Source: a virus | UHGV virus genome: UHGV-0133287 | DNA length: 45,624 bases | Direction: 5' to 3' (one strand) | Part shown: positions 16,918 to 45,299 of the stretch, one piece after another | How positions within the stretch are numbered: the stretch's first letter is position 1 | Layout of the letters: each line of letters starts with the position of its first letter | Made by a program: the position numbers and the translations under genes | The notes under the pieces: model-generated | Told to the model about the DNA's origin: nothing | The model's input: the letters and a program-made list of their open reading frames with translations, nothing else | Databases searched by the model: none

Positions 16918-18774
16918 CTATATGGTTACGCCTTTACTTATAACTCTACGGCGTCTTCTACGTATACCTGACGAGTTCTGCACATACACATTACCTCGCA
17001 TTTCCTGTTCGGCAAGCCAGTTAAAATTAGGGTTCAGAATTTCCATCGCAGCAGTTGCATAGTTACGGCAATCAAGAGGCTCGTTACGCTCGTAGACTTT
17101 CACCCACTTTTCTTTTGTCTGCCCATTTTTATATTCAAATATTTTTTTCTCTGATAATAATCCTTTAAAGTATTCGGTATCATATCCTCTGTCAGAATCT
17201 AATGGGAAATGCATATAACCAGGACCAGGATCATGTAGTTTAATTCTTGCCATGATGGTCCCTTTACCATCATCAACCCCCAAATTAAACAACATAGCAC
17301 CCACACGGTTATTATTACTTGGCTTTCCTATAAATGGTAAACCTACCCCACCACGCCCCCTGATAGAGTATATTCGCCTTGATTCTCTCGGCTTAGTAAA
17401 GCGATATACCTCTGTCGTAAAATGCCCACCAGAGTCAATACAAACGGAAGAAATCTGTAATTTTCTACCGTCACGGAATGACCAGCTACGGAGTAAGTAT
17501 TCATCAAGTTGTTTCCAGACAACATCTTGTGCGGGATCACCTGGGAATATTTTATATTCTATCCCCCATGACTCCTTACCTTTTCCCCAACCGACCAATT
17601 CACAAACTAAATACGTGTCCTGTACGTCAACACCAGCACTTAACAATAAAACATCATCTGGTAAAAACTCTTCAAACCTTATTCTGCGTTGCAACAAGTA
17701 TTCAGGATCGATATCGTCTTTAGCATCCTCTTTCCATGGCTCACCCAGCTTAAGGTTAATAAACTCCATTAATCCATTTTTATCGCGGTTTCTGGTTGCT
17801 TCCGTAAACTCTTCAACCAGCTCTGACAATGCAACCCACGGGGAGTAAAGACTGTTAATATGAAAACCAACAATACCTTTAATTCCAGTATGTTCAGCTA
17901 TCCATACCCCCTTCGCCAACCAATCAACGTCTGGTTTACCAGATCCGCGCATAATCCCGCCGCACTCACAGCACTCATATCTGGCCGTTTCCGGTAACGC
18001 CTCACCTGAATCGCTCTTATCCCATCTGACTTGCGACCATTTCATCACCTGCATGGTGCCACAACATGGGCAAGGAACATGGTAGTAACGCTGATCGGAG
18101 AGCTTAAACCACTTGTGGATTTTGCTCGTTTCCTCCAAAACAGGAGTAGAAACAAAAACTTTCTTACGATTATGAAAGTTGGTAGTACGCTGAATACCTA
18201 GTTTTAGTGGGTCGCCCTCCTGCGTCACACCGTAACGATCAATCTCATCAGCTAACAGTATTCGAATTGGCCTGGATGCAAGACCTGCTGGGGAATTAGC
18301 ACCAACAAGTGCTATATATCCACCAGCGTAATGCTTCATACGTATAGTCGTGCTGGACTTTTTGGCTGCACCGCGCCCCTCTTTCCCTTCATGCAGCTTG
18401 TGTTTCAAACCAGGGGAATATTTGAACGTCGGATCAATACGCTCTTTTGAAAAAGCCTCAGCCGCCTCTACCGTTGGATAAATCATCAACTGAGGAGATG
18501 GCTCCTGATCTGCAAAGTAACCCATAACATTTAGCTGTAATTCGGATTTACCAATTTGCGAGCTACATTGCATCACTACTGTTTCTGTATCAGCGTCACC
18601 AATAACATCCATTGGTTCACGCAAATATGGCACTCGGCTTGTACGCCACGGCCCTGGCTCTGGAGACGTTCCCGGCGCTACATGACGATACTTATCAGCC
18701 CATTCGGAAACAGTTAGCCGTGATTTAGGGCGAAGCGCACGGAAAAAAGCGGTGCTCCATACTGTTTCGCCCAT
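16918..18774 (-). CDS. terminase large subunit (lambda gpA-like)
   Basis: 618-aa ORF with an ATPase region containing a Walker-A-like QIGKSE and a C-terminal nuclease-sized domain; preceded by a small-subunit gene. Confidence 0.85.
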   Translation of the reverse strand: MGETVWSTAFFRALRPKSRLTVSEWADKYRHVAPGTSPEPGPWRTSRVPYLREPMDVIGDADTETVVMQCSSQIGKSELQLNVMGYFADQEPSPQLMIYPTVEAAEAFSKERIDPTFKYSPGLKHKLHEGKEGRGAAKKSSTTIRMKHYAGGYIALVGANSPAGLASRPIRILLADEIDRYGVTQEGDPLKLGIQRTTNFHNRKKVFVSTPVLEETSKIHKWFKLSDQRYYHVPCPCCGTMQVMKWSQVRWDKSDSGEALPETARYECCECGGIMRGSGKPDVDWLAKGVWIAEHTGIKGIVGFHINSLYSPWVALSELVEEFTEATRNRDKNGLMEFINLKLGEPWKEDAKDDIDPEYLLQRRIRFEEFLPDDVLLLSAGVDVQDTYLVCELVGWGKGKESWGIEYKIFPGDPAQDVVWKQLDEYLLRSWSFRDGRKLQISSVCIDSGGHFTTEVYRFTKPRESRRIYSIRGRGGVGLPFIGKPSNNNRVGAMLFNLGVDDGKGTIMARIKLHDPGPGYMHFPLDSDRGYDTEYFKGLLSEKKIFEYKNGQTKEKWVKVYERNEPLDCRNYATAAMEILNPNFNWLAEQEMRGNVYVQNSSGIRRRRRRVISKGVTI

Positions 18775-18779
18775 GAGGT

Positions 18780-19340
18780 TTATTCTTCCTGCTTAATAAA
18801 TCGGGATTCCTGGAGCGCCTGAAGCGCAAAATTAATCTCGTCTTCAATAATGCGTTCGATCTCCCTGGCTGTTTTGCCTTCACAACGGGGAGCTGCTCTT
18901 GGAGCAATACTAAATAAGCGGCTACGCAATTCATTAGCTGCCAGAAATGCATCATCCCTGACCGCATCTTTAGCGATGAGAGAGCCTTCCTTTTCTTCAA
19001 ATTCAAGGCGTTTCAGCTTTGCCTGATAAATTTTTTCTGCGGTCTTAGCCTTGTTGAATTGCACCGCAACACCGGAAGTACCACCAGCTAATCCGGCATC
19101 ATCAGCGGGTAACTCTGGTTGTTCCGAAGATATCCCATGCCCTCTTTTTCCATTTTCAGCAGATACCTCACGACCAACCTGTCGGCTCGCTTCATAAGCC
19201 GCACTAGCTTTATCAAAATCCAGCTTGCCGCTTTTCAGCACTGGAATGCGACCGGAACGACAGAGCTTCGTAACCATTGCCGGAGAAATACCTTTTCGGC
19301 GGGCAAACTCTGACTTACTGACGATGGCCATTACTTGCAA
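18780..19340 (-). CDS. terminase small subunit (Nu1-like, N-terminal wHTH)
   Basis: 186-aa ORF immediately upstream of the large subunit; N-terminus KSEFARRKGISPAMVTKLCRSGRIPV is a winged-HTH like Nu1. Confidence 0.55.
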   Translation of the reverse strand: MQVMAIVSKSEFARRKGISPAMVTKLCRSGRIPVLKSGKLDFDKASAAYEASRQVGREVSAENGKRGHGISSEQPELPADDAGLAGGTSGVAVQFNKAKTAEKIYQAKLKRLEFEEKEGSLIAKDAVRDDAFLAANELRSRLFSIAPRAAPRCEGKTAREIERIIEDEINFALQALQESRFIKQEE

Positions 19341-19921
19341 CCATTAGCAAGATACTGAACAAATCCCTCATGCGTTTCATGCGCGTCGTGGTACTGACGA
19401 TAAACATCCAGCAACAATGCAATTTCCATATCCGTCGCGGGAATACGTTCTTTATCAATAGCCAGGTACTTAATTTGAACAACAGGGGAAGAATTATCGT
19501 CTTCTTCCTGCGGCTGTTCATCGCTTAACATTTCGTCAAGCTCTGCATCATTAAACCCAAGCAGATCAATATCAAAATCATCATCCATTAACGCTTTGAC
19601 TTCTTCGGCCAGAAGCTGCATATCCCAGCCAGCATTTAAGGCCAGCTTGTTATCTGCAATCCTGTAAGCCTTCTTCTGTTTTTCAGAAAGGTTACTCAAC
19701 CGAATCGCTGGAACTTTATCCATTTCCAGAATTTCGGCTGCTGCAAGCCGCCCATGCCCCGCAATCAGTTCATTCTTTTCATCGATCAGCACAGGATTAG
19801 TGAAACCGAACTCACGGATACTGTTCACCAACTGTTCAACTTGCTCATCTGAATGAGTCCGTGAATTTTTGGCGTATCTGAGCAGCTTACCGACTGGTAA
19901 ATATTCGATTTTTAGAGCCAT
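19331..19921 (-). CDS. ParB-like nuclease domain protein (paralog A)
   Basis: 196-aa ORF with the ParB/Srx motif IAGHGRLAAA; overlaps the terminase small subunit start by 10 bp. Confidence 0.65.
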   Translation of the reverse strand: MALKIEYLPVGKLLRYAKNSRTHSDEQVEQLVNSIREFGFTNPVLIDEKNELIAGHGRLAAAEILEMDKVPAIRLSNLSEKQKKAYRIADNKLALNAGWDMQLLAEEVKALMDDDFDIDLLGFNDAELDEMLSDEQPQEEDDNSSPVVQIKYLAIDKERIPATDMEIALLLDVYRQYHDAHETHEGFVQYLANGCK

Positions 19922-20478
19922 TTTTTAACCGCCATAACACAACAGGTTAAAGAAAACTGTTTAACTTATTGATACTAAAAGAGAAAAATGACGATCTTTT
20001 TACTCATAAAAAATCACACAAACCAGCATAATCATCTGATTTTATTAAGTTTTTATAAGTAAAAAGGATCTTGATATGGTGTTTTGGTTAAAAGATTGGA
20101 TGTATTTGCATGATTTATAACGATTTTTATCAAAACAGCCTTACATTGGTTAAAGATCTGCGCGTATCTTGATGATCTAAAAGAAAATTCTCTACTTTCT
20201 TTTCACCATCACAAGCACAGCAAAAAATCACGTTTTCCCGATGTTTTTCAATGAGATGAGTAAATTTCTTTTACCGAAACTTTTAACCTAACTTTTTTCA
20301 CGTTTAGCTAGCCGAACATCGGGGTTCGAATGACCCGCATCCAACGCTTTTGGCCAGAAGGACCCAATTCTGCCGGACGATGAAACGATGCTCGTGCTCC
20401 CCCACAGACAGCCAGCGAGCGACGCTACAGAACACAGTGAATACACTCTGCATAACAACACCATCAACCACACGATGA

Positions 20479-21214: not shown

Positions 21215-22594
21215 CTACTTAATCAACGGCCGGAAAGCCGCCAGCACATCATCAGATCGTCCGATTGTTGAACCACCAGGCAACGGCAACTCAAACTCAA
21301 AACGAACAGCTTTCTCCAGACTCGCCCAACTAAGGGAATCATCGTTAATGACGTGCAAATACCAGCTCTTACAGTTGAATATTGACCGCTTAATCCTGAA
21401 ACCATGTACACGACACAACTGCTTCACTTCCTCATCAGAGTGAAACTTCTGGTAAAACCAGTGCCCCTTCCGGTACAACGCGGTAAAACCGTTATGATCA
21501 ATAAAATAAAGCCGGCTTTTGGAACTCGCCGCTTGTGTCTGCTTCAGGACTGTTTCCAGCTCTCCACGGCTACGGCCAGAAAAGAATATTGACCCACCAG
21601 CTTTACACAGCCCTTTCAGAACCGTCAGAACGGACCATTCAGCCTCGACACTATCGACCGAGTTCAAAACGCTATCGCAAATCACGTAGTCGTAACGCCC
21701 TCGCGTTTTTAAGTCGTCCACCAGCGTATCAATCATCCGGTTTGTTGCGGTCCTATCCAGAGTGTTTCCAGCGCCCTTACGGCGGAAAAGCTCAAGATCA
21801 TGCAGGTTATATCCCTTTGCCCTGAGCATTCGCGCGTAGTCTCCCTGACCCGAACCAAAATCAATTCCTCTTGGCGTCTTGGCAATGATCGGGAGGATCA
21901 ACGACTCATACAGGTTTGATTTCAGGCTGCCACCATTACGCAACCGCATAAGCTGCGCATACGTCTGGATGTATGTTGTTTTCTCCAGATGAGAATACTC
22001 AAATACACCATAAGTTTTATTCAGATAACTTTGGTATTTTTCCTTCTCAACATCAGGGATCACAAACACCGTTAGCGGTGTGCGCGTCATCTTCGCTGCT
22101 AATGCATACTGAGCACAGTGAATAACCTCGCCAGACTGCGTAGCAACACAACCACCCCACGGACCATACTTGATAACCAGTTCCGCTATGTTCTTTCGAA
22201 CATATGCCATTTTCGCGCGCATATTGCCTGAGATCTGGCTTGCCGATACCTGAACAAAACCATGCTTATCTTCCAGACCGGACACCCTGCAACGCTCATC
22301 TCCGCTATCAAAATCCGTTCCGTTATGCAGTTGGTTAAACCGTACTTCGTCGTATACCGTCGTTTCACAGGGCAACACATACACCGCAGCACGCGTTATT
22401 CCCAACTTACGTAGCGCCTTCGTCCTTTGGTGTCCCGCCACCAGCAAATCGCCGCGCACTATCAATGGCTTCACAAGCCCCAGCTCCCTGACGCTTTCCG
22501 CCAGCCTCGCAAGATCATCCTCACCGATAAAACGCGGGTTATATTCCGCACCGCGTAGGTGCGTTATGTCGTAATTGAGGTGAAGCATCAGCAC
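21215..22594 (-). CDS. ParB-like N-terminal domain fused to class-I SAM-methyltransferase-like domain
   Basis: 459-aa ORF. N-terminus has LVAGHQRTKALRKLGI (ParB/Srx GxxR motif). C-terminal half has a glycine-rich IDFGSGQGDYA (SAM-binding motif I-like) and YDYVICDSVLNSV. No DPPY/NPPY or PCQ motif seen, so it does not look like a classical DNA amino- or C5-methyltransferase. Confidence 0.55.
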   Translation of the reverse strand: MLMLHLNYDITHLRGAEYNPRFIGEDDLARLAESVRELGLVKPLIVRGDLLVAGHQRTKALRKLGITRAAVYVLPCETTVYDEVRFNQLHNGTDFDSGDERCRVSGLEDKHGFVQVSASQISGNMRAKMAYVRKNIAELVIKYGPWGGCVATQSGEVIHCAQYALAAKMTRTPLTVFVIPDVEKEKYQSYLNKTYGVFEYSHLEKTTYIQTYAQLMRLRNGGSLKSNLYESLILPIIAKTPRGIDFGSGQGDYARMLRAKGYNLHDLELFRRKGAGNTLDRTATNRMIDTLVDDLKTRGRYDYVICDSVLNSVDSVEAEWSVLTVLKGLCKAGGSIFFSGRSRGELETVLKQTQAASSKSRLYFIDHNGFTALYRKGHWFYQKFHSDEEVKQLCRVHGFRIKRSIFNCKSWYLHVINDDSLSWASLEKAVRFEFELPLPGGSTIGRSDDVLAAFRPLIK

Positions 22595-23211
22595 ACCTCC
22601 CCAGCCAGCAATGCGGATACAAATCCGATATAGCTGCCATTATCATCAACATAACGAGATACCGCGCAGTCAAAACGATCCGCTTCCTCATCCGTTGCCG
22701 GGATTTTATGACCTCCAAATGACAGGTACTGAACTTTTACGCCTGATTTGGCCTCATCCTTCTCAAATGGGATATCCATACCCTCTGTGTCATCGTAGAC
22801 CGCCGCACTCAATAAGTTATCCAGTTCGCGCTGAGTAAAACCAATTGAGTCCAGAGCAAAATCATCGGCCGCAAGATCTGCAAGCTCCGCGCTTAACAAC
22901 TCTTCATCCCAACCAGCATTCAGCGGAATACGGTTGTCGGCCAGACGATATGCCTTCTTCTGATTCTCCGTTAGCCCAGCCAGAACAATGCAGGGAACAT
23001 CATCCATCCCCAACTGAGTGGCCGCAGCAATTCGACCATGACCAGCAATTACAACGTTGTTCTCGTCTATCAGGATCGGATTAGTCCATCCGTACTCCTG
23101 TATGCTGGCAACAATCTGATCTACCTGCTCCACGGAGTGTGTGCGAGCGTTCTTTTCATAACCAATCAACACAGAAAGTGGTAAAGAAACCACATTAAGA
23201 TGTTTTGTCAT
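22588..23211 (-). CDS. ParB-like nuclease domain protein (paralog B)
   Basis: 207-aa ORF with IAGHGRIAAA; colinear with paralog A over about 200 aa (roughly half identical by eye); overlaps the downstream fusion gene by 7 bp. Confidence 0.65.
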   Translation of the reverse strand: MTKHLNVVSLPLSVLIGYEKNARTHSVEQVDQIVASIQEYGWTNPILIDENNVVIAGHGRIAAATQLGMDDVPCIVLAGLTENQKKAYRLADNRIPLNAGWDEELLSAELADLAADDFALDSIGFTQRELDNLLSAAVYDDTEGMDIPFEKDEAKSGVKVQYLSFGGHKIPATDEEADRFDCAVSRYVDDNGSYIGFVSALLAGEVC

Positions 23212-24719: not shown

Positions 24720-24793
24720 CCCATGTTCTCCTTTGTCTGGATGTAAAAAAGCCCCGGCAATTGCCGAGGCTCGTTGTTCGTTATCGTTACGGT

Positions 24794-24994
24794 TTAATGC
24801 TCGCGTCGTCCGGCGACAACTTCGGATTTGTATTTCAGGTCGCCCAGCAAGAATTGCAGTTTAAGCATCTTTGCCGCCGTGTAGTTCCCTGATTCCACAA
24901 CCTCTTTCATGAGGTCATAAACGGCCGCTACATCATCAGCCAGGAACTCTTTGCGTTGCTGCTCAGTCGCACGTTTGAAGGAAATACGCATCAC
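24794..24994 (-). CDS. hypothetical protein
   Basis: 66-aa ORF overlapping the upstream gene stop by 4 bp. Confidence 0.3.
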   Translation of the reverse strand: MMRISFKRATEQQRKEFLADDVAAVYDLMKEVVESGNYTAAKMLKLQFLLGDLKYKSEVVAGRREH

Positions 24995-25260
24995 TCATCA
25001 TCTCCTGCCGCACATACAACCTCACAAAAAACATCAGCGGAATGTTTCTCCTTGAACGAATGACGCTCAAAACCGCACTCAATATCAGGCGCAAAAACAT
25101 CCACCACATACGGTCTTTCAGAATGTTCGTTTTCCCAACGATAAACCGTAGTGACGTTGAAATGTTTTAACGCTTCACGGAACTCAACGCTGCCCGTCAG
25201 GTTTTTTGAGGTCAGGTATTGCAGGAGGTTTTTTACTACTTCACGGTCTTGTACTTTCAT
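24991..25260 (-). CDS. hypothetical protein (first gene after leader copy A)
   Basis: 89-aa ORF whose ATG follows GGAGATAACCCG at the end of the conserved leader cassette. Confidence 0.35.
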   Translation of the reverse strand: MKVQDREVVKNLLQYLTSKNLTGSVEFREALKHFNVTTVYRWENEHSERPYVVDVFAPDIECGFERHSFKEKHSADVFCEVVCAAGDDE

Positions 25261-25377
25261 CGGGTTATCTCCGGTTTAACCAGGGCGGGTATCGCTCGGT
25301 TTCGGGTATAACCATAGGAAATTTTTTCCCATCCGTAAAGCGCTTTTTATATAAATCTATAATTATATAATTCTATG
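25261..25377 (-). promoter_or_regulatory. conserved promoter/leader cassette, copy A
   Basis: About 115 bp nearly identical to 32437-32557 and 41314-41430. In the minus-strand sense it carries an AT-rich palindromic block (TATATAATTATAGATTTATATAAA), a TTTAC(G/A)-N17-TATGGT promoter-like pair, then a ~45-nt leader ending GGAGATAACCCG-ATG. Confidence 0.5.
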
Positions 25378-25960
25378 CCACTTGCCAGAGAGCATCATGC
25401 AACTGGATACCTCCATTGCACTGGTTGCCCCAGCCATGCCAGCCATCAGGTAAATCACCGCGAGCAAACAGCTCAATACGAGGAACATCACCTAACAGCT
25501 TTACCAGCTTGTCACGGACCACATCAGGCTTCCGAGAATGCTCCAGACGAGGCGATGTAAACGACTGAATGATCCCCGCATCAAGACGGGTCGGCAGTTT
25601 GCCTTTTACCGCAAACAAGCAATCTTCACTGTTTGCACGAGTCATATGCCCCATCCCCATCACCAGCTTATCTGGTTGTCGGCTACCACATTTGTTCCAT
25701 GTGAAGCCCTTCATGGTCATCAGCCTGAATCCCCATGCTTTAACCACCAGCAACGCTTCTTCTGGCTGAGTCGGAACCCACCACATGGCCAACAAACACG
25801 ATTCAGGATTAGCAAGCTGCCAGACAGGAATACGAGCAATCTCCTCAGCTTTCATCGTTGGATACTTAAAACCAGCTCCACGATTCCCATCCTTACACTT
25901 GTCTTTGTATTCCCAGGGGGGATCTGCATAAATCAGATTAAACAATGCAATTGCCTCCAT
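25373..25960 (-). CDS. DNA N6-adenine methyltransferase, MT-A70 family
   Basis: 195-aa ORF with N-terminal LIYADPPWEY (the DPPW catalytic motif). Confidence 0.7.
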   Translation of the reverse strand: MEAIALFNLIYADPPWEYKDKCKDGNRGAGFKYPTMKAEEIARIPVWQLANPESCLLAMWWVPTQPEEALLVVKAWGFRLMTMKGFTWNKCGSRQPDKLVMGMGHMTRANSEDCLFAVKGKLPTRLDAGIIQSFTSPRLEHSRKPDVVRDKLVKLLGDVPRIELFARGDLPDGWHGWGNQCNGGIQLHDALWQVA

Positions 25961-26267
25961 GTTAATTGTGCCTCCGGCGCTTATCTCCGGCAGTCATAAC
26001 GCTGGCCAGCTCTACAGCAAACACAACGAAAAGGGCACTAACCAGACTGATTAATGCCCTTGCCTGTTGTGTGCCGGATATCGCCCGACAACGCTGTTTT
26101 GGTAACACGGCTACAGTTCCGTGCCGCTCCAGCTTTTACCCCTTTGCGGATAACAGGCCCTGCCTGTAACTTAGCCCCACGTTCGCCCGAAATGCGCACT
26201 AGGCACGCATAAAGATGAGCACGAAGAAGTAACTCCACCGCGCTTATCTTTATGTGTGAGAGTGAAT

Positions 26268-26343
26268 TGGTGGCCCCTACCGGATTTGAACCGATGACCG
26301 TGCGATTATGAGTCGCCTGCTCTAACCACTGAGCTAAGGGGCC
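26268..26343 (-). tRNA. tRNA with CAU anticodon (Met or lysidine-type Ile2)
   Basis: 76-nt minus-strand sequence GGCCCCTTAGCTCAGTGGTTAGAGCAGGCGACTCATAATCGCACGGTCATCGGTTCAAATCCGGTAGGGGCCACCA folds by hand into a cloverleaf: 7-bp acceptor stem, GCTC/GAGC D-stem, CUCAUAA anticodon loop, TTCAAAT T-loop, encoded CCA. The 5' half resembles E. coli ileX as I recall it. Confidence 0.8.
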
Positions 26344-26512: not shown

Positions 26513-26722
26513 TTACTTTGGACAGTTGATTTCCCATGCCCTGTTATGAGCCAGAATATCTTTCTTTGTCTGTCGGTCCATAACATCGATGTCGTGATCA
26601 GTCAGGTAGATGGGCTTTACCCAATCACAGGCGGTATCAACCACCACCGGGACGCTTCCACGACTCCCGCAGCTCGCGATCAACATCGTCATCAGCCATA
26701 TGGTTAACACTCTGCTGTACAT
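26513..26722 (-). CDS. o-spanin (Rz1-like lipoprotein)
   Basis: 69-aa ORF with signal peptide and lipobox LIASC; overlaps the 3' end of the Rz-like gene in another frame. Confidence 0.5.
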   Translation of the reverse strand: MYSRVLTIWLMTMLIASCGSRGSVPVVVDTACDWVKPIYLTDHDIDVMDRQTKKDILAHNRAWEINCPK

Positions 26723-26915
26723 TCCCCACCTCTTTTGTCACTTCTATACGCCGCTCCGCAGTGGCTTTTACGGCGGCTGCATTCTCATTAATGCGCTGCT
26801 TTTCAGCTTCATCTTCGGCCTTTTCTCGCCCCTTCATACGACCAAAACCAAACGCGCCAAATGCAACCAATATAATTGTGCCAATAAATGACAAAACAGC
26901 CTTCAAACCAGTCAT
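26637..26915 (-). CDS. i-spanin (Rz-like)
   Basis: 92-aa ORF with an N-terminal TM helix then a charged coiled-coil-like region; directly downstream of the endolysin. Confidence 0.5.
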   Translation of the reverse strand: MTGLKAVLSFIGTIILVAFGAFGFGRMKGREKAEDEAEKQRINENAAAVKATAERRIEVTKEVGNVQQSVNHMADDDVDRELRESWKRPGGG

Positions 26916-27454
26916 ACCACCACTCGCTCTTTCATCCAGCCGTAGACAAACGACTCATTAGCCTCGCGCTTCTCCGCCAACTCCAGATAGCGTTCGCCCT
27001 GCGTACAGTTCAGCGACGTCAGCATCACCCGTTCGCCGTCTTTTCCCCGATTCCCAAGATAAGCACGCAGCGCATTAATGGTACGTGGACCGATTCGTCC
27101 GTCTGCATCCAAATCGGGATACAGCTTCCCACGCAGGTTGAACACATTCAGCCAGCGTTGAAGCATTTTTGACGCCACTGTTGGCCCCATGTTGACGCCC
27201 GTGTCGCACAGTTCTGCGGCAATATCCGGCGACAGAGTTGCTATCTGGTCAAAACGTGGGCCGTACCAGTAATCAGCCTCAAGGATTTCCAGAGCCTGTT
27301 CGCGAGTTAAATCGCGCATATCGCCACGGTATCCATGAGCACGGGCAGTGTTCTGAGTAATGCCCCACTTTGTTGGGCCTCCCTTGTCGTCAGGGTGATC
27401 CACATAGCCGCCCTCTTTTCCAAGAACGCTGTTAAAAATCTCATCTTTGGTCAT
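26912..27454 (-). CDS. endolysin (GH108-type muramidase with PG-binding domain)
   Basis: 180-aa ORF with LGKEGGYVDHPDDKGGPTKWGIT, matching the GH108 EGGY...DPGG.T.YGIT signature. Confidence 0.7.
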   Translation of the reverse strand: MTKDEIFNSVLGKEGGYVDHPDDKGGPTKWGITQNTARAHGYRGDMRDLTREQALEILEADYWYGPRFDQIATLSPDIAAELCDTGVNMGPTVASKMLQRWLNVFNLRGKLYPDLDADGRIGPRTINALRAYLGNRGKDGERVMLTSLNCTQGERYLELAEKREANESFVYGWMKERVVV

Positions 27455-27773
27455 GATTAAACCCTAATGCGTCAACTATCCGCGCCAGATTGCCCCTGAA
27501 ATACAGAACAACGATGCAGATAATCAGATTTCCAATAACCACCAGCCAGTGGGATTCTTGATAAAGACCGAACACATAACGGAAGGGAACATTGGCGTAT
27601 ACAATGACGTAGATATAAGCCAGAAAGGAAACAAATGGACGATGCCTGGAGTCTTTCCGTCGATAAAGCATCAGCGCCATTACTATTACTGTGCAAAGCA
27701 CCGCATTAATCAGTGCTGACGGGTCACTGCTTACCATTTGAACCCCCTCCACGTAAGCGGGAAAGCATTCCAA
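27441..27773 (-). CDS. membrane protein in lysis cassette (possible holin/antiholin partner)
   Basis: 110-aa ORF with about three hydrophobic helices; overlaps holin 3' end and endolysin 5' end. An internal Met (MVSSDP...) may be the start. Confidence 0.4.
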   Translation of the reverse strand: MECFPAYVEGVQMVSSDPSALINAVLCTVIVMALMLYRRKDSRHRPFVSFLAYIYVIVYANVPFRYVFGLYQESHWLVVIGNLIICIVVLYFRGNLARIVDALGFNHDQR

Positions 27774-28119
27774 AGATGCTACCGAGATCCTGGCTGTTTA
27801 CGAACGTGAGGATTTTAATGGTCAATGCAGCCACAATAACCGCACCAAGCGCATCCAGAGGACGATCGTTGTAGCTGGTCCATTTGGCAAGAAATGAGCC
27901 AACTAACGGCGCTCCAATCACTCCAACAATGAACGATGTAAAGAAATAGCCAATCAGCTTGAGACGGCTAATATTCACCGCTGTAGCAACATAGAAAACA
28001 GCGCCAGCAAATGCCCCGAATACAACGCCGTAATCAATACCAGTTGCAATACCAAAAACGCTGGCACCCATCAGGCCACCAGCAGCAACGGCCGTACCGG
28101 AAATTGGTTCTGCTGACAT
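27724..28119 (-). CDS. holin
   Basis: 131-aa multi-TM Gly/Ala-rich ORF heading the lysis cassette; GAGGA RBS. Confidence 0.55.
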   Translation of the reverse strand: MSAEPISGTAVAAGGLMGASVFGIATGIDYGVVFGAFAGAVFYVATAVNISRLKLIGYFFTSFIVGVIGAPLVGSFLAKWTSYNDRPLDALGAVIVAALTIKILTFVNSQDLGSIFGMLSRLRGGGSNGKQ

Positions 28120-28130
28120 TGAAATCCTCG

Positions 28131-28164
28131 TTAAAAAAAAAGCCCCGCCGAAAAAGGCAGGGCT
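28131..28164 (-). terminator. intrinsic terminator 12 nt upstream of the holin start
   Basis: Minus strand: AGCCCTGCC-TTTTTC-GGCGGGGCT hairpin followed by nine U residues, ending 12 nt before the holin ATG with only an RBS between. Confidence 0.55.
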
Positions 28165-28309
28165 TCATAAAGCAACAAATTACGCGGTAATCGCTTAACG
28201 CAGTTTTACTACGTTAAATGAAACACTACACCCAGTTACCACCTAAAACAAGGTTTCTCCATAAAAAAACCTTCAAAACGTGGTTAATCGATCAATAAAA
28301 AAACAATTC

Positions 28310-43585: not shown

Positions 43586-44563
43586 TTAATGTTGGAGTGA
43601 TTTCCAAGTCTTTCTTAACCTGTTATAACGCTGCTCAACGAGGGATCGTAAATATGCAAGGTCAGCTCCAGGATACATGCCATCAGCAAATTCCTGGCTA
43701 ACCTCTCTAGTGATTTGATGACGAAGTTCGGCCTCTCCCTTTTCCCGAACAAGACGCGCAGCTCTCTCCGCTGCTTTCTGTTTTGCCTTTATCTCTCTGG
43801 CCGTCTTCCTCTGACGCCATACATTCTCCATCTGCTCCTGAATAACAATACGCTTATAATCAGCCTCCGTTATCGCTTTTTTAAGCCGTTCGCTATTCTT
43901 CGCATTGAAGTAATTAAGTTTCTGGCTAACCGCACGTCTCCATGCTTGTTCAGTAATACCAACGGTTTCCAGCAGTTGATCACGAATCTCTATTTTCGCT
44001 GGCCAATACTGTTTATTCACCCGATCCCAGCGACGTTCATAATCAATAAAACCTAACGCTTTCAGTTGCGACAACGCCCTTGTACAGCGCGTTATAGACT
44101 TGTTCCCAGCTTCGGATACGGTAGACAGACCGCAAAAATCAGCCAACGCCTCAGCACTGGCCAGAACCCGCTTAGAAATGATGTTTACATGGTGCAAAAT
44201 CGCAGCAATCACAGCATTAATCGCCCGACGACGATGCTCGTTTATCCGGCGTTTCCGCTCTGACGGTTGATTAACGTAGAACGCAACCTCACACGTAAGA
44301 TCACGACCATTAATGCGCTGTAAAGCATCAGATAACACCAGCGGCAGCTTGTGCGTATGGTGCTTTGGAGGCTGGAACTCCGGCGACAAATTACAAACGT
44401 AAGCTGAACGTAGAGACGGCATTGGTCTATCCATATGTTCGCTCTTGCGTCCACGGAAAACCAACGTATAATGGGAGTTGTCGAGGCGCCCATGGTTAAT
44501 TGTTGGTTTTCCGTGGATGTCGCAAGAAGCCCGCAGATTTATCTGCGGGCTTTTTGTTTCCAT
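43586..44563 (-). CDS. repA: replication initiator RepA (IncFII RepA1-like)
   Basis: The central region (GLSTVSEAGNKSITRCTRALSQLKALGFIDYE) resembles IncFII RepA1 (...SITRATRALTFLSELGLITYQTEYD...) as I recall it. The true start may be the internal ATG at 44434 (MDRPMPSL, about 283 aa), because the first 43 codons overlap a putative antisense RNA and hairpin. Confidence 0.75.
   Translation of the reverse strand: METKSPQINLRASCDIHGKPTINHGRLDNSHYTLVFRGRKSEHMDRPMPSLRSAYVCNLSPEFQPPKHHTHKLPLVLSDALQRINGRDLTCEVAFYVNQPSERKRRINEHRRRAINAVIAAILHHVNIISKRVLASAEALADFCGLSTVSEAGNKSITRCTRALSQLKALGFIDYERRWDRVNKQYWPAKIEIRDQLLETVGITEQAWRRAVSQKLNYFNAKNSERLKKAITEADYKRIVIQEQMENVWRQRKTAREIKAKQKAAERAARLVREKGEAELRHQITREVSQEFADGMYPGADLAYLRSLVEQRYNRLRKTWKSLQH
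44479..44560 (+). ncRNA. candidate CopA-like antisense RNA to the repA leader
   Basis: Plus-strand promoter -35 TTGCGT (44445-44450), 16-bp spacer, -10 TATAAT (44467-44472), then about 80 nt ending in a perfect 12-bp hairpin AAGCCCGCAGAT-TT-ATCTGCGGGCTT plus TTTGTTT (44527-44560), antisense to the repA 5' region. Confidence 0.5.
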
Positions 44564-44744: not shown

Positions 44745-45299
44745 TCAATGATTCCCAGCCGGAAACCTGCGGTAAAGCGTGGATAAGGTAACATCGAAGA
44801 TAATCGCTATCCGCTTACGTGAAACACCATTCGCAATAAGCCTTCCGATCTGTTCCCATTGCTCTGGTGCCAGCTTTGAGCGGCGTCCTCCTATCCTGCC
44901 GTTAGCCCTTGCCACCGCCAATCCTGCACGCGTTCTTTCAATCATATTTTCCCGCTCCATCTCTGCGACTGCACTCAGCATCGTGTAGGCAAAGCGGCCA
45001 ATTGAAGTGCTAATTTTTATCCCTTCCGTAATCGAAATAAACTCAATGTCGTTTGATAAAAAATGGTTAAGTAAATCAACAAGATGAATCAGAGAACGCC
45101 CCATTCGGTCCAGCTTCCAGACAATAACCGTATCGCCCGGTCGTAACACCTTCAGTAGCTTATCAAGTCCTGGTCGTTTTGATTTAGCACCGGATATTTT
45201 ATCTTCAAAAATCCGGTCACATCCTGAACTCCTGAGCGCCTCCAGTTGTAATTCCAAATTCTGGTCAAAAGTTGACACCCTCGCATAACCATATTGCAT
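44745..45299 (-). CDS. serine recombinase, DNA invertase (Gin/Hin/Cin/Pin family)
   Basis: 184-aa ORF opening MQYGYARVSTFDQNLELQLEAL..., with the conserved catalytic Ser region and a C-terminal HTH; strongly resembles Gin. Confidence 0.85.
   Translation of the reverse strand: MQYGYARVSTFDQNLELQLEALRSSGCDRIFEDKISGAKSKRPGLDKLLKVLRPGDTVIVWKLDRMGRSLIHLVDLLNHFLSNDIEFISITEGIKISTSIGRFAYTMLSAVAEMERENMIERTRAGLAVARANGRIGGRRSKLAPEQWEQIGRLIANGVSRKRIAIIFDVTLSTLYRRFPAGNH

What the first reader, a model, noticed from the sequence alone, without database searches (positions are those of the whole stretch)
25373..25960. Orphan MT-A70-type DNA adenine methyltransferase, the second methyltransferase-like gene in the late region
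The DPPW motif indicates an N6-adenine DNA methyltransferase with no adjacent restriction partner, plausibly self-protective or anti-restriction. Together with the ParB-methyltransferase fusion, the element carries two modification-type enzymes.
Basis: partly seen in the sequence, partly recalled or inferred. Interest (0 to 1): 0.35.

Follow-up and report, generated by a model that had tools for sequence, protein, structure and literature searches.

The report
Stand-alone MT-A70 adenine methyltransferase, phage-plasmid
This is a real, intact and already annotated MT-A70-family adenine methyltransferase gene in the late operon of a 46-49 kb E. coli phage-plasmid; it most likely methylates GATC in DNA like the host Dam enzyme, so it is an ordinary finding whose substrate has not been tested.

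Summary
Window 25373-25960 (minus strand) is a 195-aa ORF that matches Pfam MT-A70 end to end, with DPPW at residues 13-16. It is under purifying selection (dN/dS 0.04-0.19), and its model matches METTL3 and Tetrahymena MTA1. RefSeq already annotates the identical protein as 'MT-A70 family methyltransferase'. It sits on about 58 non-mobilizable Escherichia plasmids of 46-51 kb and in three Yersinia myophages, so the element is a phage-plasmid.

The gene lies alone between the lysis cassette plus a tRNA and a ParB/terminase block. No restriction enzyme is nearby.

It is 72% identical to the Stx2-phage enzyme (M.EcoGV / M.EcoPA8orf6770P type) and 42% identical to Serratia phage BZS1 p32. M.EcoGV and p32 each methylate GATC when expressed alone. 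The Stx enzyme was also reported to methylate 16S rRNA, but only with an upstream partner, PNB-2. That partner, the Stx-type C-terminal tail and the early-operon position are all missing here.

Best reading: a partner-less, Dam-like GATC DNA methyltransferase made late in infection (about 0.55). An anti-restriction role is untested and would add little in Dam+ hosts. Low interest; already known.

The parts
25373..25960 (-). CDS of the 195-aa MT-A70 family (beta-class) N6-adenine methyltransferase
   Evidence: ORF list; Pfam PF05063 over the full length, E=2.9e-23; PHROG 359; PADLOC MTase_II; AF2 model with pLDDT 80 and pTM 0.82 that matches METTL3 and MTA1; PGAP annotates the 100%-identical copy as 'MT-A70 family methyltransferase'.
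25913..25924 (-). Codons for the catalytic motif IV, DPPW (residues 13-16)
   Evidence: Read directly from the sequence. It aligns to the DPPW of MTA1. P14 and W16 are invariant in 32 homologues.
25421..25474 (-). C-terminal SAM-binding region: ELFAR (residues 163-167) through WGNQ (residues 177-180)
   Evidence: Aligns to IFAR...GNE of MTA1. E163, F165, R167, W177, G178 and N179 are invariant.
25971..25975 (-). Shine-Dalgarno-like GGAGG, 10 nt upstream of the ATG
   Evidence: Read from the sequence. PGAP uses the same ATG; the Yersinia phage records start 5 codons later at a TTG.
26031..26061 (-). Hairpin with a weak T-tail between the tRNA and the methyltransferase gene
   Evidence: Terminator-like scan: 14 pairs, 5 of them G-C. 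Function untested.
26268..26343 (-). tRNA gene with a CAT anticodon, 307 nt upstream of the methyltransferase
   Evidence: ARAGORN calls it tRNA-Met; Rfam tRNA, 67 bits; PGAP calls the same gene tRNA-Ile. It is conserved upstream of the 75%-identical homologue in L013 but absent in L014.
26513..28119 (-). Lysis cassette upstream: two holins, GH108 endolysin, Rz/Rz1 spanins
   Evidence: PHROG and Pfam hits.
24991..25260 (-). Downstream 89-aa ORFan ('d89'), 112 nt after the methyltransferase stop
   Evidence: PHROG 6143, unknown function. Only 11 protein clusters exist, with frameshift variants. It is present in L013 and L014 but deleted in L001 and L008. The model is alpha-alpha-beta-beta-beta-alpha with no significant PDB match.
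24794..24994 (-). Downstream 66-aa ORF ('d66'), overlapping d89 by 4 nt
   Evidence: PHROG 6621, unknown function. Conserved in relatives.
24749..24772 (-). Strong intrinsic-terminator-like hairpin closing the methyltransferase-d89-d66 group
   Evidence: 10 pairs, 7 of them G-C, followed by TTTTT.
22588..23211 (-). 207-aa protein with a ParB/Srx N-terminal domain
   Evidence: Pfam ParB_N E=4.4e-5; matches the N-terminal part of PADLOC MTase_II PDLC03229 at E=3e-37; PGAP annotation.
21215..22594 (-). 459-aa ParB_N + Methyltransf_23 fusion (the 'other' methyltransferase-like gene)
   Evidence: Pfam. This architecture is reported as phage-enriched with unknown function (PMC12704722). It fits the 'ParB-terminase locus' concept (PMC4738411).

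Best explanation
The gene encodes a minimal, stand-alone beta-class (MT-A70 clade) SAM-dependent N6-adenine methyltransferase. It most likely methylates the adenine of GATC in double-stranded DNA, the same specificity as host Dam but from an unrelated enzyme class. It sits as an isolated cistron in the late operon of a roughly 46-49 kb myovirus phage-plasmid, after the lysis genes and a tRNA and before the ParB/terminase block. It would therefore be made during lytic growth, when phage DNA is replicating faster than the scarce host Dam can methylate it.

The likely result is fully GATC-methylated progeny DNA before packaging. That would protect it from MboI/DpnII-type enzymes, prevent MutH-type processing of under-methylated DNA, and keep GATC-dependent functions of the plasmid form working. 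This parallels phage-plasmid P1, which carries its own late Dam-like enzyme (from general knowledge).

Shown here: family membership, intact motifs, fold, purifying selection, absence of a restriction enzyme or a PNB-2 partner, and the genomic position. Inferred: the DNA substrate, GATC specificity, late timing and biological role.
For: - Family, motifs and fold.
- The protein is 72% identical over residues 7-181 to the Stx2-phage enzyme of P13374 and F004. That enzyme type (M.EcoGV) is listed with GATC specificity and methylates GATC in vivo when over-produced without a partner (PMC6602927; PMC10810198).
- The segment at residues 76-125, which contains the variable, low-confidence loop likely to contact the target, is 98% identical to the phiV10-type enzyme and 84% identical to the P13374 enzyme. 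The target preference should therefore be shared.
- A more distant MT-A70 phage enzyme, BZS1 p32 (42% identical), gave MboI-resistant and DpnI-sensitive DNA when expressed alone in dam- E. coli. The Tn1549 enzyme M.EfaBMDam is also GATC-specific (PMC7556043).
- There is no partner gene. PNB-1, PNB-2 and both downstream Stx ORFs have no homologue in the window.
- In 33 genomes of other Enterobacterales the gene's neighbours vary, as expected for a self-sufficient enzyme.
- dN/dS is 0.04-0.19.
- The gene is retained at 97% identity or more on 58 plasmids, in 85 of 5426 complete E. coli genomes and in three plaque-forming Yersinia phages.
- No sigma-70-like promoter was found on the gene's strand between 23000 and 28500, which fits expression from the late transcript.
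Against: - No methylation data exist for this protein.
- Purified M.EcoPA8orf6770P alone had near-background activity on dam- DNA in vitro, and with PNB-2 it preferred 16S rRNA (PMC10810198). The GATC activity of this clade therefore rests on over-expression experiments, which can give off-target methylation.
- GATC is moderately depleted in the window: 134 sites, observed/expected 0.65, second only to CTAG among palindromic tetramers. That is not what one expects if GATC sites were reliably protected.
- GATC sites do not cluster near the terminase or replication genes beyond chance, so there is no P1-like methylation-dependent site to point to.
- That P13374 gp37 is the enzyme named M.EcoGV is my inference from position and from the papers' descriptions; I did not compare the sequences.
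Confidence: 0.55

Rival explanations
1. It is an RNA methyltransferase. Like the Stx2a-phage M.EcoPA8orf6770P-PNB-2 holoenzyme, it places m6A on host 16S rRNA (or on another stable RNA such as the adjacent phage tRNA) to retune translation during lytic growth. It might use a different, unrecognised targeting partner such as the downstream 89-aa protein.
For: - The catalytic core is 72% identical to the Stx enzyme reported to prefer 16S rRNA and the 30S subunit.
- The best structural matches include the mRNA methyltransferase METTL3.
- The gene sits beside a tRNA gene, and this pairing is conserved in L013.
- The d89 model has an alpha-beta-beta-beta-alpha unit, and its weak best Foldseek hits are dsRNA-binding domains (E 0.13-0.6, TM about 0.3).
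Against: - In the published work RNA preference needed PNB-2. PNB-2 is absent here.
- The Stx-type C-terminal tail, proposed as the PNB-2 docking region, is replaced by an unrelated 15-residue tail.
- The authors themselves note that short isoforms occur without PNB-2.
- d89 is not translationally coupled to the methyltransferase (112-nt gap). It is an ORFan of 11 clusters with frameshift variants. It is deleted in viable relatives L001 and L008, where the methyltransferase gene stays intact under purifying selection.
- The d89 structural hits are not significant.
- The rRNA claim rests only on SAM-consumption assays, with no modified base mapped.
Confidence: 0.12
2. It is a DNA adenine methyltransferase with a specificity other than GATC, or with relaxed specificity. 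It serves as a true anti-restriction device that pre-methylates progeny DNA against Type I-III systems of future hosts.
For: - It is an orphan Type II-like methyltransferase (PADLOC MTase_II) with no endonuclease nearby.
- It is encoded on a mobile element found in E. coli, E. albertii, E. fergusonii, Klebsiella and, as phage, on Yersinia.
- Phage methyltransferases with relaxed specificity exist, for example the OS31 enzyme and M.EcoGII.
- The protein has no separate target-recognition domain.
Against: Every characterised stand-alone member of this small prokaryotic MT-A70 group methylates GATC. The putative target loop is 84-98% identical to that of the GATC-type relatives. The known relaxed-specificity enzymes belong to a different family (ParB + N6_N4_MTase).
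Confidence: 0.2
3. It is a component of the ParB/Srx-terminase DNA-packaging module. Together with the ParB-methyltransferase fusion and two ParB/Srx proteins, it marks DNA as part of genome recognition or cleavage by the terminase.
For: The co-linear block of methyltransferase, d89, d66, ParB207, ParB-MTase, ParB196, TerS and TerL is conserved in L013 and L014, even though their lysis cassette differs and their MT-A70 is only 75% identical. Iyer et al. predicted that methyltransferases in ParB-terminase loci modify DNA during packaging.
Against: - The methyltransferase is 2.2 kb and two terminator-like hairpins away from the ParB genes.
- Its closest relatives (phiV10 and Stx phages, and 33 chromosomal prophages) sit in early operons near the integrase, with no ParB or terminase neighbours.
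- All three co-linear examples belong to a single phage-plasmid lineage, so the synteny may simply be inherited.
- There is no significant GATC cluster near the terminase genes.
Confidence: 0.08
4. It is an inactive or decaying passenger gene with no current function.
For: The purified Stx homologue alone was nearly inactive in vitro. The protein is minimal at 195 aa, and its neighbour d89 is visibly decaying.
Against: dN/dS is 0.04-0.19. All catalytic motifs are intact and invariant. The full-length ORF is kept at 97% identity or more across 58 plasmids, 85 genomes and phage isolates.
Confidence: 0.05

Closest known systems
M.EcoGV / M.EcoPA8orf6770P type: the MT-A70 methyltransferase of Stx2a-converting phages (P13374 gp37, phage F004 'adenine methylase')
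   Same: The two are 72% identical over the whole catalytic domain (residues 7-181). Both have the same DPPW, ELFAR and WGNQ motifs and the same minimal one-domain build. Both are encoded by temperate phages of Enterobacteriaceae.
   Different: The Stx enzyme is 208 aa with a 32-residue C-terminal tail. It lies in the early-left operon beside int/xis. It is preceded by the winged-helix partner gene PNB-2, with which it was reported to methylate 16S rRNA. The window protein has an unrelated 15-residue tail and no PNB-2 anywhere in the element. It also stands alone in the late region after a tRNA.
phiV10 / epsilon15-like 'putative adenine methylase' (PhiV10p33)
   Same: 77% identical overall and 98% identical across residues 76-125. 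Same fold family.
   Different: It is 216 aa with a 40-residue tail. A PerC-family gene overlaps it upstream, and it lies next to the integrase. The window gene looks like a mosaic: a phiV10-type centre with different N- and C-terminal segments shared with L013 and L014.
PhiBZS1_p32 (Serratia phage vB_SspM_BZS1) and M.EfaBMDam (Tn1549): experimentally GATC-specific MT-A70/beta-class DNA methyltransferases
   Same: They belong to the same Pfam family and share the motif order. They are stand-alone enzymes on mobile elements. GATC specificity was shown for them by MboI/DpnI digestion after expression in dam- E. coli.
   Different: Identity is only 42%. BZS1 p32 carries a 23-residue insertion in the loop that corresponds to residues 98-103 here. 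It lies downstream of the integrase, not in the late region.
Eukaryotic MT-A70 enzymes: METTL3-METTL14 (mRNA m6A) and Tetrahymena MTA1-MTA9-p1-p2 (DNA 6mA at ApT)
   Same: They are the closest solved structures. Sequence E-values are 3e-13 (MTA1) and 2e-6 (METTL3). Foldseek gives E about 1e-12 and TM 0.63-0.71. The catalytic DPPW is shared.
   Different: Identity is 22-25%. Those enzymes work as obligate heteromers with a degenerate paralogue and extra nucleic-acid-binding subunits or domains. No such paralogue or partner is encoded here.
Phage P1 Dmt and other phage Dam-like orphan methyltransferases (T4 Dam, VT2-Sa Dam, HP1 Dam)
   Same: The proposed working analogy is a phage or phage-plasmid that encodes its own GATC methyltransferase despite living in Dam+ hosts. 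This rests on general knowledge and on the list in PMC7556043.
   Different: They belong to different protein families (alpha-class Dam or Pfam 'Dam' PF05869). This is convergence in specificity, not homology. Membership was not tested here.

Membership tests
MT-A70 family (Pfam PF05063), beta-class N6-adenine amino-methyltransferases | Profile match above the curated threshold over the whole domain | tested here: met
   83.1 bits against a cut-off of 23.9; profile positions 1-172 of 172.
MT-A70 family (Pfam PF05063), beta-class N6-adenine amino-methyltransferases | Catalytic motif IV (D/N)PP(W/Y) near the N-terminus, placed before the SAM-binding motif I region (circularly permuted order) | tested here: met
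   DPPW is at residues 13-16, and ELFAR and WGNQ are at 163-180. They align with the same motifs of MTA1 and METTL3 and are invariant in homologues.
MT-A70 family (Pfam PF05063), beta-class N6-adenine amino-methyltransferases | Rossmann-like MT-A70 fold | tested here: met
   AF2 model with pLDDT 80.2 and pTM 0.82. The top 50 PDB matches are all METTL3 or MTA1 catalytic domains, with E 6e-13 to 2e-11 and TM 0.63-0.71.
MT-A70 family (Pfam PF05063), beta-class N6-adenine amino-methyltransferases | SAM-dependent methyl transfer to adenine N6 | not testable with these tools
   Requires an enzyme assay or a methylome.
Dam-like GATC-specific prokaryotic MT-A70 subgroup (M.EcoGV, PhiBZS1_p32, M.EfaBMDam) | Close sequence similarity to a member with an experimentally assigned specificity | tested here: met
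   72% identical to P13374 gp37 / F004 (M.EcoGV type) and 42% identical to PhiBZS1_p32. Residues 76-125 are 84-98% identical to the type-B enzymes.
Dam-like GATC-specific prokaryotic MT-A70 subgroup (M.EcoGV, PhiBZS1_p32, M.EfaBMDam) | Methylation of GATC (MboI resistance, DpnI sensitivity, 6mA at GATC) | not testable with these tools
   No methylation data are available. GATC counts in the window (O/E 0.65) are uninformative.
M.EcoPA8orf6770P-PNB-2 16S rRNA methyltransferase holoenzyme (Gong et al. 2023) | Adjacent, co-transcribed gene for the winged-helix targeting subunit PNB-2 | tested here: not met
   tblastn with both PNB-2 versions (P13374 ORF08 and F004 130 aa) finds nothing in the window (best E=1.7). 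A tRNA and non-coding DNA lie upstream.
M.EcoPA8orf6770P-PNB-2 16S rRNA methyltransferase holoenzyme (Gong et al. 2023) | Full-length isoform with the STEC-type C-terminal extension (the last ~27 aa) | tested here: not met
   There are 15 residues after WGNQ, against 32 in the Stx enzyme, and the tails do not align.
M.EcoPA8orf6770P-PNB-2 16S rRNA methyltransferase holoenzyme (Gong et al. 2023) | Preferential methylation of 16S rRNA / 30S subunits | not testable with these tools
   Needs biochemistry.
Type II restriction-modification system | A cognate restriction endonuclease gene next to the methyltransferase | tested here: not met
   Nine neighbours were searched with PHROGs, Pfam and PADLOC. 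None matched a nuclease or defence model, apart from matches to the ParB-domain part of an MTase_II model. PGAP annotates no endonuclease in the related plasmid.
ParB-terminase-locus methyltransferases (ParB-fused phage methyltransferases) | Methyltransferase domain fused to, or immediately beside, a ParB/Srx domain next to the terminase | tested here: not met
   This is true of the 459-aa neighbour but not of the MT-A70 gene. The MT-A70 protein has a single domain, lies 2.2 kb away, and in other phages occurs without ParB or terminase neighbours.

The most novel reading that the evidence does not exclude
The partner-less MT-A70 enzyme is not a Dam mimic. Instead it is a late-expressed RNA m6A methyltransferase acting on host rRNA or on the co-located phage tRNA(CAU). 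Together with that tRNA it would form a small 'translation-retuning' islet in a phage-plasmid, perhaps aided by the downstream 89-aa protein with a dsRBD-like topology. That would extend the single, still unmapped report of a phage rRNA methyltransferase to a different architecture.
Probability: 0.1. Interest if true: 0.6.

Novelty: already known. Interest (0 to 1): 0.2.

Why it matters
The gene changes little as it stands. It is a correctly recognisable, already annotated orphan methyltransferase of a common type.

Its modest value is as a natural control for an open question. Do the small prophage MT-A70 enzymes of Enterobacteriaceae act on GATC in DNA, as M.EcoGV and BZS1 p32 suggest? Or do they act on 16S rRNA, as the M.EcoPA8orf6770P-PNB-2 work suggests?

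This variant keeps the same catalytic core (72% identical; putative target loop 84-98% identical). It naturally lacks PNB-2 and the C-terminal tail. It also resides on a small phage-plasmid carried by accessible strains, including E. coli ATCC 25922. Testing it in a dam- background would show what the core enzyme does on its own.

Tried and rejected
1. **PNB-2-type partner.** tblastn with PNB-2 (two versions), PNB-1/antirepressor and both ORFs downstream of the Stx methyltransferase found no homologue in the window.
2. **Any conserved partner across the family.** Upstream and downstream ORFs in 39 loci were clustered. The neighbours are variable. The largest group (8 loci) is PerC-like and is absent here.
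3. **d89 as a winged-helix or dsRBD partner.** The AF2 model is decent (pLDDT 78), but Foldseek found no hit at E<=0.001. The dsRBD resemblance is weak (TM about 0.3). The family is an ORFan with frameshifts and deletions. I rejected it as a required subunit.
4. **GATC statistics as a test of specificity or role.** GATC is moderately depleted (O/E 0.65). There is no significant clustering: the maximum of 5 sites in 400 bp is reached in 94% of random placements, and the tightest triple has P=0.15. This is uninformative.
5. **NCBIfam.** No model matched.
6. **Promoter scan for lysogenic (moron-like) expression.** No sigma-70-like site was found on the gene's strand. This is a crude consensus scan, so it is weak evidence only.
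7. **Fang et al. 2012, the primary M.EcoGV source.** It could not be read. The GATC assignment is therefore cited second-hand.
8. **Literature on the Yersinia and E. coli phage isolates of this lineage.** Nothing relevant to methylation was found.
9. **Structure as a way to tell DNA from RNA substrates.** METTL3 (RNA) and MTA1 (DNA) match equally well, so the fold cannot decide.
Full report
**1. Observation**

The coordinates given delimit exactly one minus-strand ORF, 25373..25960, of 195 aa. It starts at an ATG, with a GGAGG 10 nt upstream at 25971-25975.
- The protein matches Pfam MT-A70 (PF05063) over the entire profile, at E=2.9e-23 and 83.1 bits against a cut-off of 23.9.
- It also matches PHROG 359 'DNA methyltransferase' at E=2.7e-102 and the PADLOC Type II methyltransferase model PDLC03262 at E=7.6e-69. 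No NCBIfam model matches.
- DPPW lies at residues 13-16. ELFAR (163-167) and WGNQ (177-180) align with the corresponding motifs of Tetrahymena MTA1 and human METTL3.
- In an alignment of 32 homologues at 62-75% identity, P14, W16, E163, F165, R167, W177, G178 and N179 are invariant.
- An AlphaFold2 model (pLDDT 80.2, pTM 0.82) retrieves only METTL3 and MTA1 catalytic domains from the PDB, with E 6e-13 to 2e-11 and TM 0.63-0.71.
- dN/dS against near and distant relatives is 0.04-0.19.

In detail: this is a real, intact, selected MT-A70 gene.

**2. Surroundings**

All genes in this stretch are on the minus strand. In transcription order they are as follows:
- two holins (27724-28119 and 27441-27773);
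- a GH108 endolysin (26912-27454);
- Rz/Rz1 spanins (26637-26915 and 26513-26722);
- a tRNA with a CAT anticodon (26268-26343);
- a hairpin (26031-26061);
- the methyltransferase;
- after 112 nt, an 89-aa ORFan (d89) and a 66-aa ORFan (d66);
- a strong terminator-like hairpin (24749-24772);
- further small unknown ORFs;
- a ParB/Srx protein (22588-23211);
- a ParB_N + Methyltransf_23 fusion (21215-22594);
- a 239-aa unknown protein;
- a third ParB/Srx protein (19331-19921);
- a putative small terminase, a lambda-gpA-type large terminase (16918-18774) and the portal.

None of nine flanking proteins matches a restriction endonuclease or another defence model. 'Orphan', 'late region' and 'second methyltransferase-like gene' are therefore all correct.

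**3. What the element is**

- The gene is 98-99% identical in nucleotides to three Yersinia myophages, vB_YpM_39, 41 and 44, where it is annotated 'hypothetical'.
- It occurs in 85 of 5426 complete E. coli genomes. Of the 87 places found, 69 are on plasmids of 46-51 kb.
- PLSDB holds 58 such plasmids, all non-mobilizable.
- A 100%-identical copy lies on plasmid pGPT24-02-C (46,125 bp). That plasmid carries RepA, ParA, a RelE/ParE toxin-antitoxin pair, an XRE repressor and a complete myovirus morphogenesis set. PGAP labels the gene there 'MT-A70 family methyltransferase'.

The window is therefore essentially a whole phage-plasmid. It is not an integrated prophage, and the gene is already correctly annotated in RefSeq.

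**4. Relatives and architecture**

The family is large: 6444 proteins at E<=1e-5, mostly from Enterobacterales prophages. They are annotated as 'MT-A70 family methyltransferase', 'adenine methylase' or 'S-adenosylmethionine-binding protein'.

Two architectural types emerge.
- **Type A.** This includes the window gene, L004-L012, and the 75-76% identical L013 and L014. These proteins are 189-195 aa with a 15-residue tail after WGNQ. The gene lies after the lysis cassette, is followed by d89 and d66, and has the ParB207/ParB-MTase pair 2.4-3.7 kb downstream.
- **Type B.** This includes phiV10 (216 aa) and the Stx2 phages (208 aa). These proteins have a 32-40-residue tail. The gene lies in the early-left operon next to int/xis. 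A small regulator-like gene sits immediately upstream, usually overlapping it. In phiV10 this is a PerC-family gene, and in Stx phages it is a winged-helix protein.

In 33 other genera the gene is packed tightly into operons with variable neighbours.

The window protein is a mosaic.
- Residues 76-125 are 98% identical to phiV10 and 84% to P13374, but only 69% to L013 and L014.
- Residues 7-75 and 163-181 are closest to L013 and L014 (82-100%).

**5. Experimental anchor points from the literature**

(a) Gong, Chakraborty and Koudelka (PMC10810198) studied the Stx2a-phage MT-A70 enzyme M.EcoPA8orf6770P.
- Alone, it had near-background SAM consumption with DNA, including dam- DNA, and with RNA.
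- It co-purified 1:1 with PNB-2, the product of the gene upstream. The complex preferred 16S rRNA and 30S subunits. No modified base was mapped.
- The authors note that short isoforms lacking the last 27 residues occur without PNB-2.

(b) The same paper and PMC6602927 report that the highly similar M.EcoGV methylates GATC in vivo when over-produced without any partner. REBASE-style tables list it as GATC.

(c) Bujak et al. (PMC7556043) expressed the MT-A70 enzyme p32 of Serratia phage BZS1 alone in dam- E. coli. The DNA became MboI-resistant and DpnI-sensitive, which indicates GATC. They also cite the GATC-specific M.EfaBMDam of Tn1549.

I located the Stx genes in phage records P13374 and F004. 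The terminator quoted in the paper is present at L119:1918-1936, just upstream of the PNB-2 gene.

The window protein is 72% identical to the Stx enzyme over residues 7-181 and 42% identical to BZS1 p32. BZS1 p32 has a 23-residue insertion in the loop that is least confident in my model, residues 102-106. None of PNB-1, PNB-2 or the two ORFs downstream of the Stx enzyme has a homologue in the window.

**6. Most likely mechanism**

The catalytic core and the probable target loop are shared with enzymes that methylate GATC when expressed alone. The rRNA-directing subunit, its proposed docking tail and the early-operon context are all absent. The best-supported reading is therefore a self-sufficient, Dam-like GATC N6-adenine DNA methyltransferase.

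Its position implies expression with the late genes. It stands as an isolated cistron between the lysis genes and the terminase, with no sigma-70-like promoter on its strand. At that time the phage DNA pool outgrows the host Dam supply. The outcome would be fully methylated progeny DNA.

I put this at about 0.55. The steps that are shown are family, motifs, fold, selection, context, and absence of a partner or a restriction enzyme. Substrate, motif, timing and benefit are inferred.

With a GATC target in Dam+ hosts, however, it would add little. It would also expose the DNA to methyl-dependent enzymes.

**7. Rivals**

- **RNA methyltransferase (0.12).** It is supported only by homology to the Stx enzyme, by the adjacent tRNA, and by a weak dsRBD-like topology of d89. 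Against it: PNB-2 is missing, d89 is an ORFan with frameshift variants, and d89 is deleted in viable relatives whose methyltransferase stays intact.
- **DNA methyltransferase of other or relaxed specificity, acting in anti-restriction (0.20).** This is possible for a minimal enzyme. It is disfavoured by the conserved loop and by the uniform GATC results in this subgroup.
- **Part of the ParB-terminase packaging module (0.08).** Synteny is confined to one lineage, and relatives occur without ParB or terminase neighbours.
- **Inactive relic (0.05).** This is contradicted by selection and motif conservation.

**8. Things that led nowhere**

- GATC is moderately depleted (134 sites, O/E 0.65, second after CTAG). 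It does not cluster beyond chance near the replication or packaging genes. Composition therefore neither confirms nor refutes the specificity.
- The fold cannot tell DNA from RNA substrates.

**9. Novelty and score**

The exact protein is in RefSeq with the correct family name. The family, its phage distribution and its likely specificity are all published. I rate it 'already known' and of low interest (0.2).

Its one useful aspect is that it is a natural PNB-2-less, tail-less variant on a tractable phage-plasmid, present for example in E. coli ATCC 25922. It could help settle whether the core enzyme of this clade acts on DNA GATC or on rRNA.

Noticed in passing
whole window; e.g. 43586-44563 (-), 44745-45299 (-): The element is a phage-plasmid, not an integrated prophage. 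Near-identical sequences are circular, non-mobilizable 46-51 kb Escherichia plasmids. These carry RepA, ParA, a RelE/ParE toxin-antitoxin pair, an XRE repressor and a serine recombinase, plus a full myovirus gene set. The same element has been isolated as Yersinia phages vB_YpM_39, 41 and 44.
   Followed up: partly
26268-26343 (-): ARAGORN calls the tRNA with a CAT anticodon tRNA-Met. PGAP annotates the same gene as tRNA-Ile, that is, a lysidine-dependent AUA decoder. From memory, its first ~40 nt resemble E. coli ileX. It sits directly upstream of the MT-A70 gene here and in L013, but not in L014.
   Followed up: partly
22588-23211, 21215-22594, 19331-19921 (all -): Three ParB/Srx N-domain proteins lie just upstream of the terminase genes. 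The two short ones (207 and 196 aa) match only the N-terminal ParB part of a 436-position PADLOC 'MTase_II' model, at E=3e-37 and 1.4e-40. They look like ParB-methyltransferase fusions without the methyltransferase half. The 459-aa one carries Methyltransf_23 instead. The function of such fusions is unknown.
   Followed up: partly
19922-20478: A gap of about 557 bp with no convincing ORF lies on the gene strand between the 239-aa gene and the ParB196/TerS/TerL block. It is also unannotated in the related plasmid, at record positions 21770-22326. It is a candidate cos/pac region. Five GATC sites fall between 19784 and 20174, but that is within chance.
   Followed up: no
24991-25260 (-): The 89-aa ORFan downstream of the methyltransferase is predicted with moderate confidence as alpha-alpha-beta-beta-beta-alpha. 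Its best, non-significant PDB hits are dsRNA-binding domains (DGCR8, PKR, ADAR1; E 0.13-0.6). Its family has only 11 clusters, with several frameshifted C-termini, and it is deleted in L001 and L008.
   Followed up: yes
25373-25960 (-), residues 76-125: The MT-A70 gene is a recombinational mosaic. Its centre is 98% identical at protein level to the phiV10-type enzyme, whereas the two ends are closest to the L013/L014 type.
   Followed up: yes
28134-28291 (-) and 28139-28166 (-): A strong terminator-like hairpin (11 pairs, followed by a T-run) lies just upstream of the first holin gene. It sits inside a sub-threshold Rfam 'GcvB' match (34.6 bits against 42). The layout resembles a late-promoter leader plus terminator that would need antitermination.
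   Followed up: no
L119:3579-3600 and L002:4155-4176 (Stx2 phages F004 and P13374): The reverse primer printed in Gong et al. 2023 for the methyltransferase/PNB constructs matches the 3' end of a DUF1627 winged-helix-like gene about 590 bp downstream of the methyltransferase stop. If the primers are as printed, those constructs would also carry two further small ORFs.
   Followed up: partly
whole window: GATC is the second most under-represented palindromic tetramer (O/E 0.65) after CTAG (0.45). The plus strand has a strong C-over-G excess (11583 against 8821), in line with most genes lying on the minus strand.
   Followed up: partly
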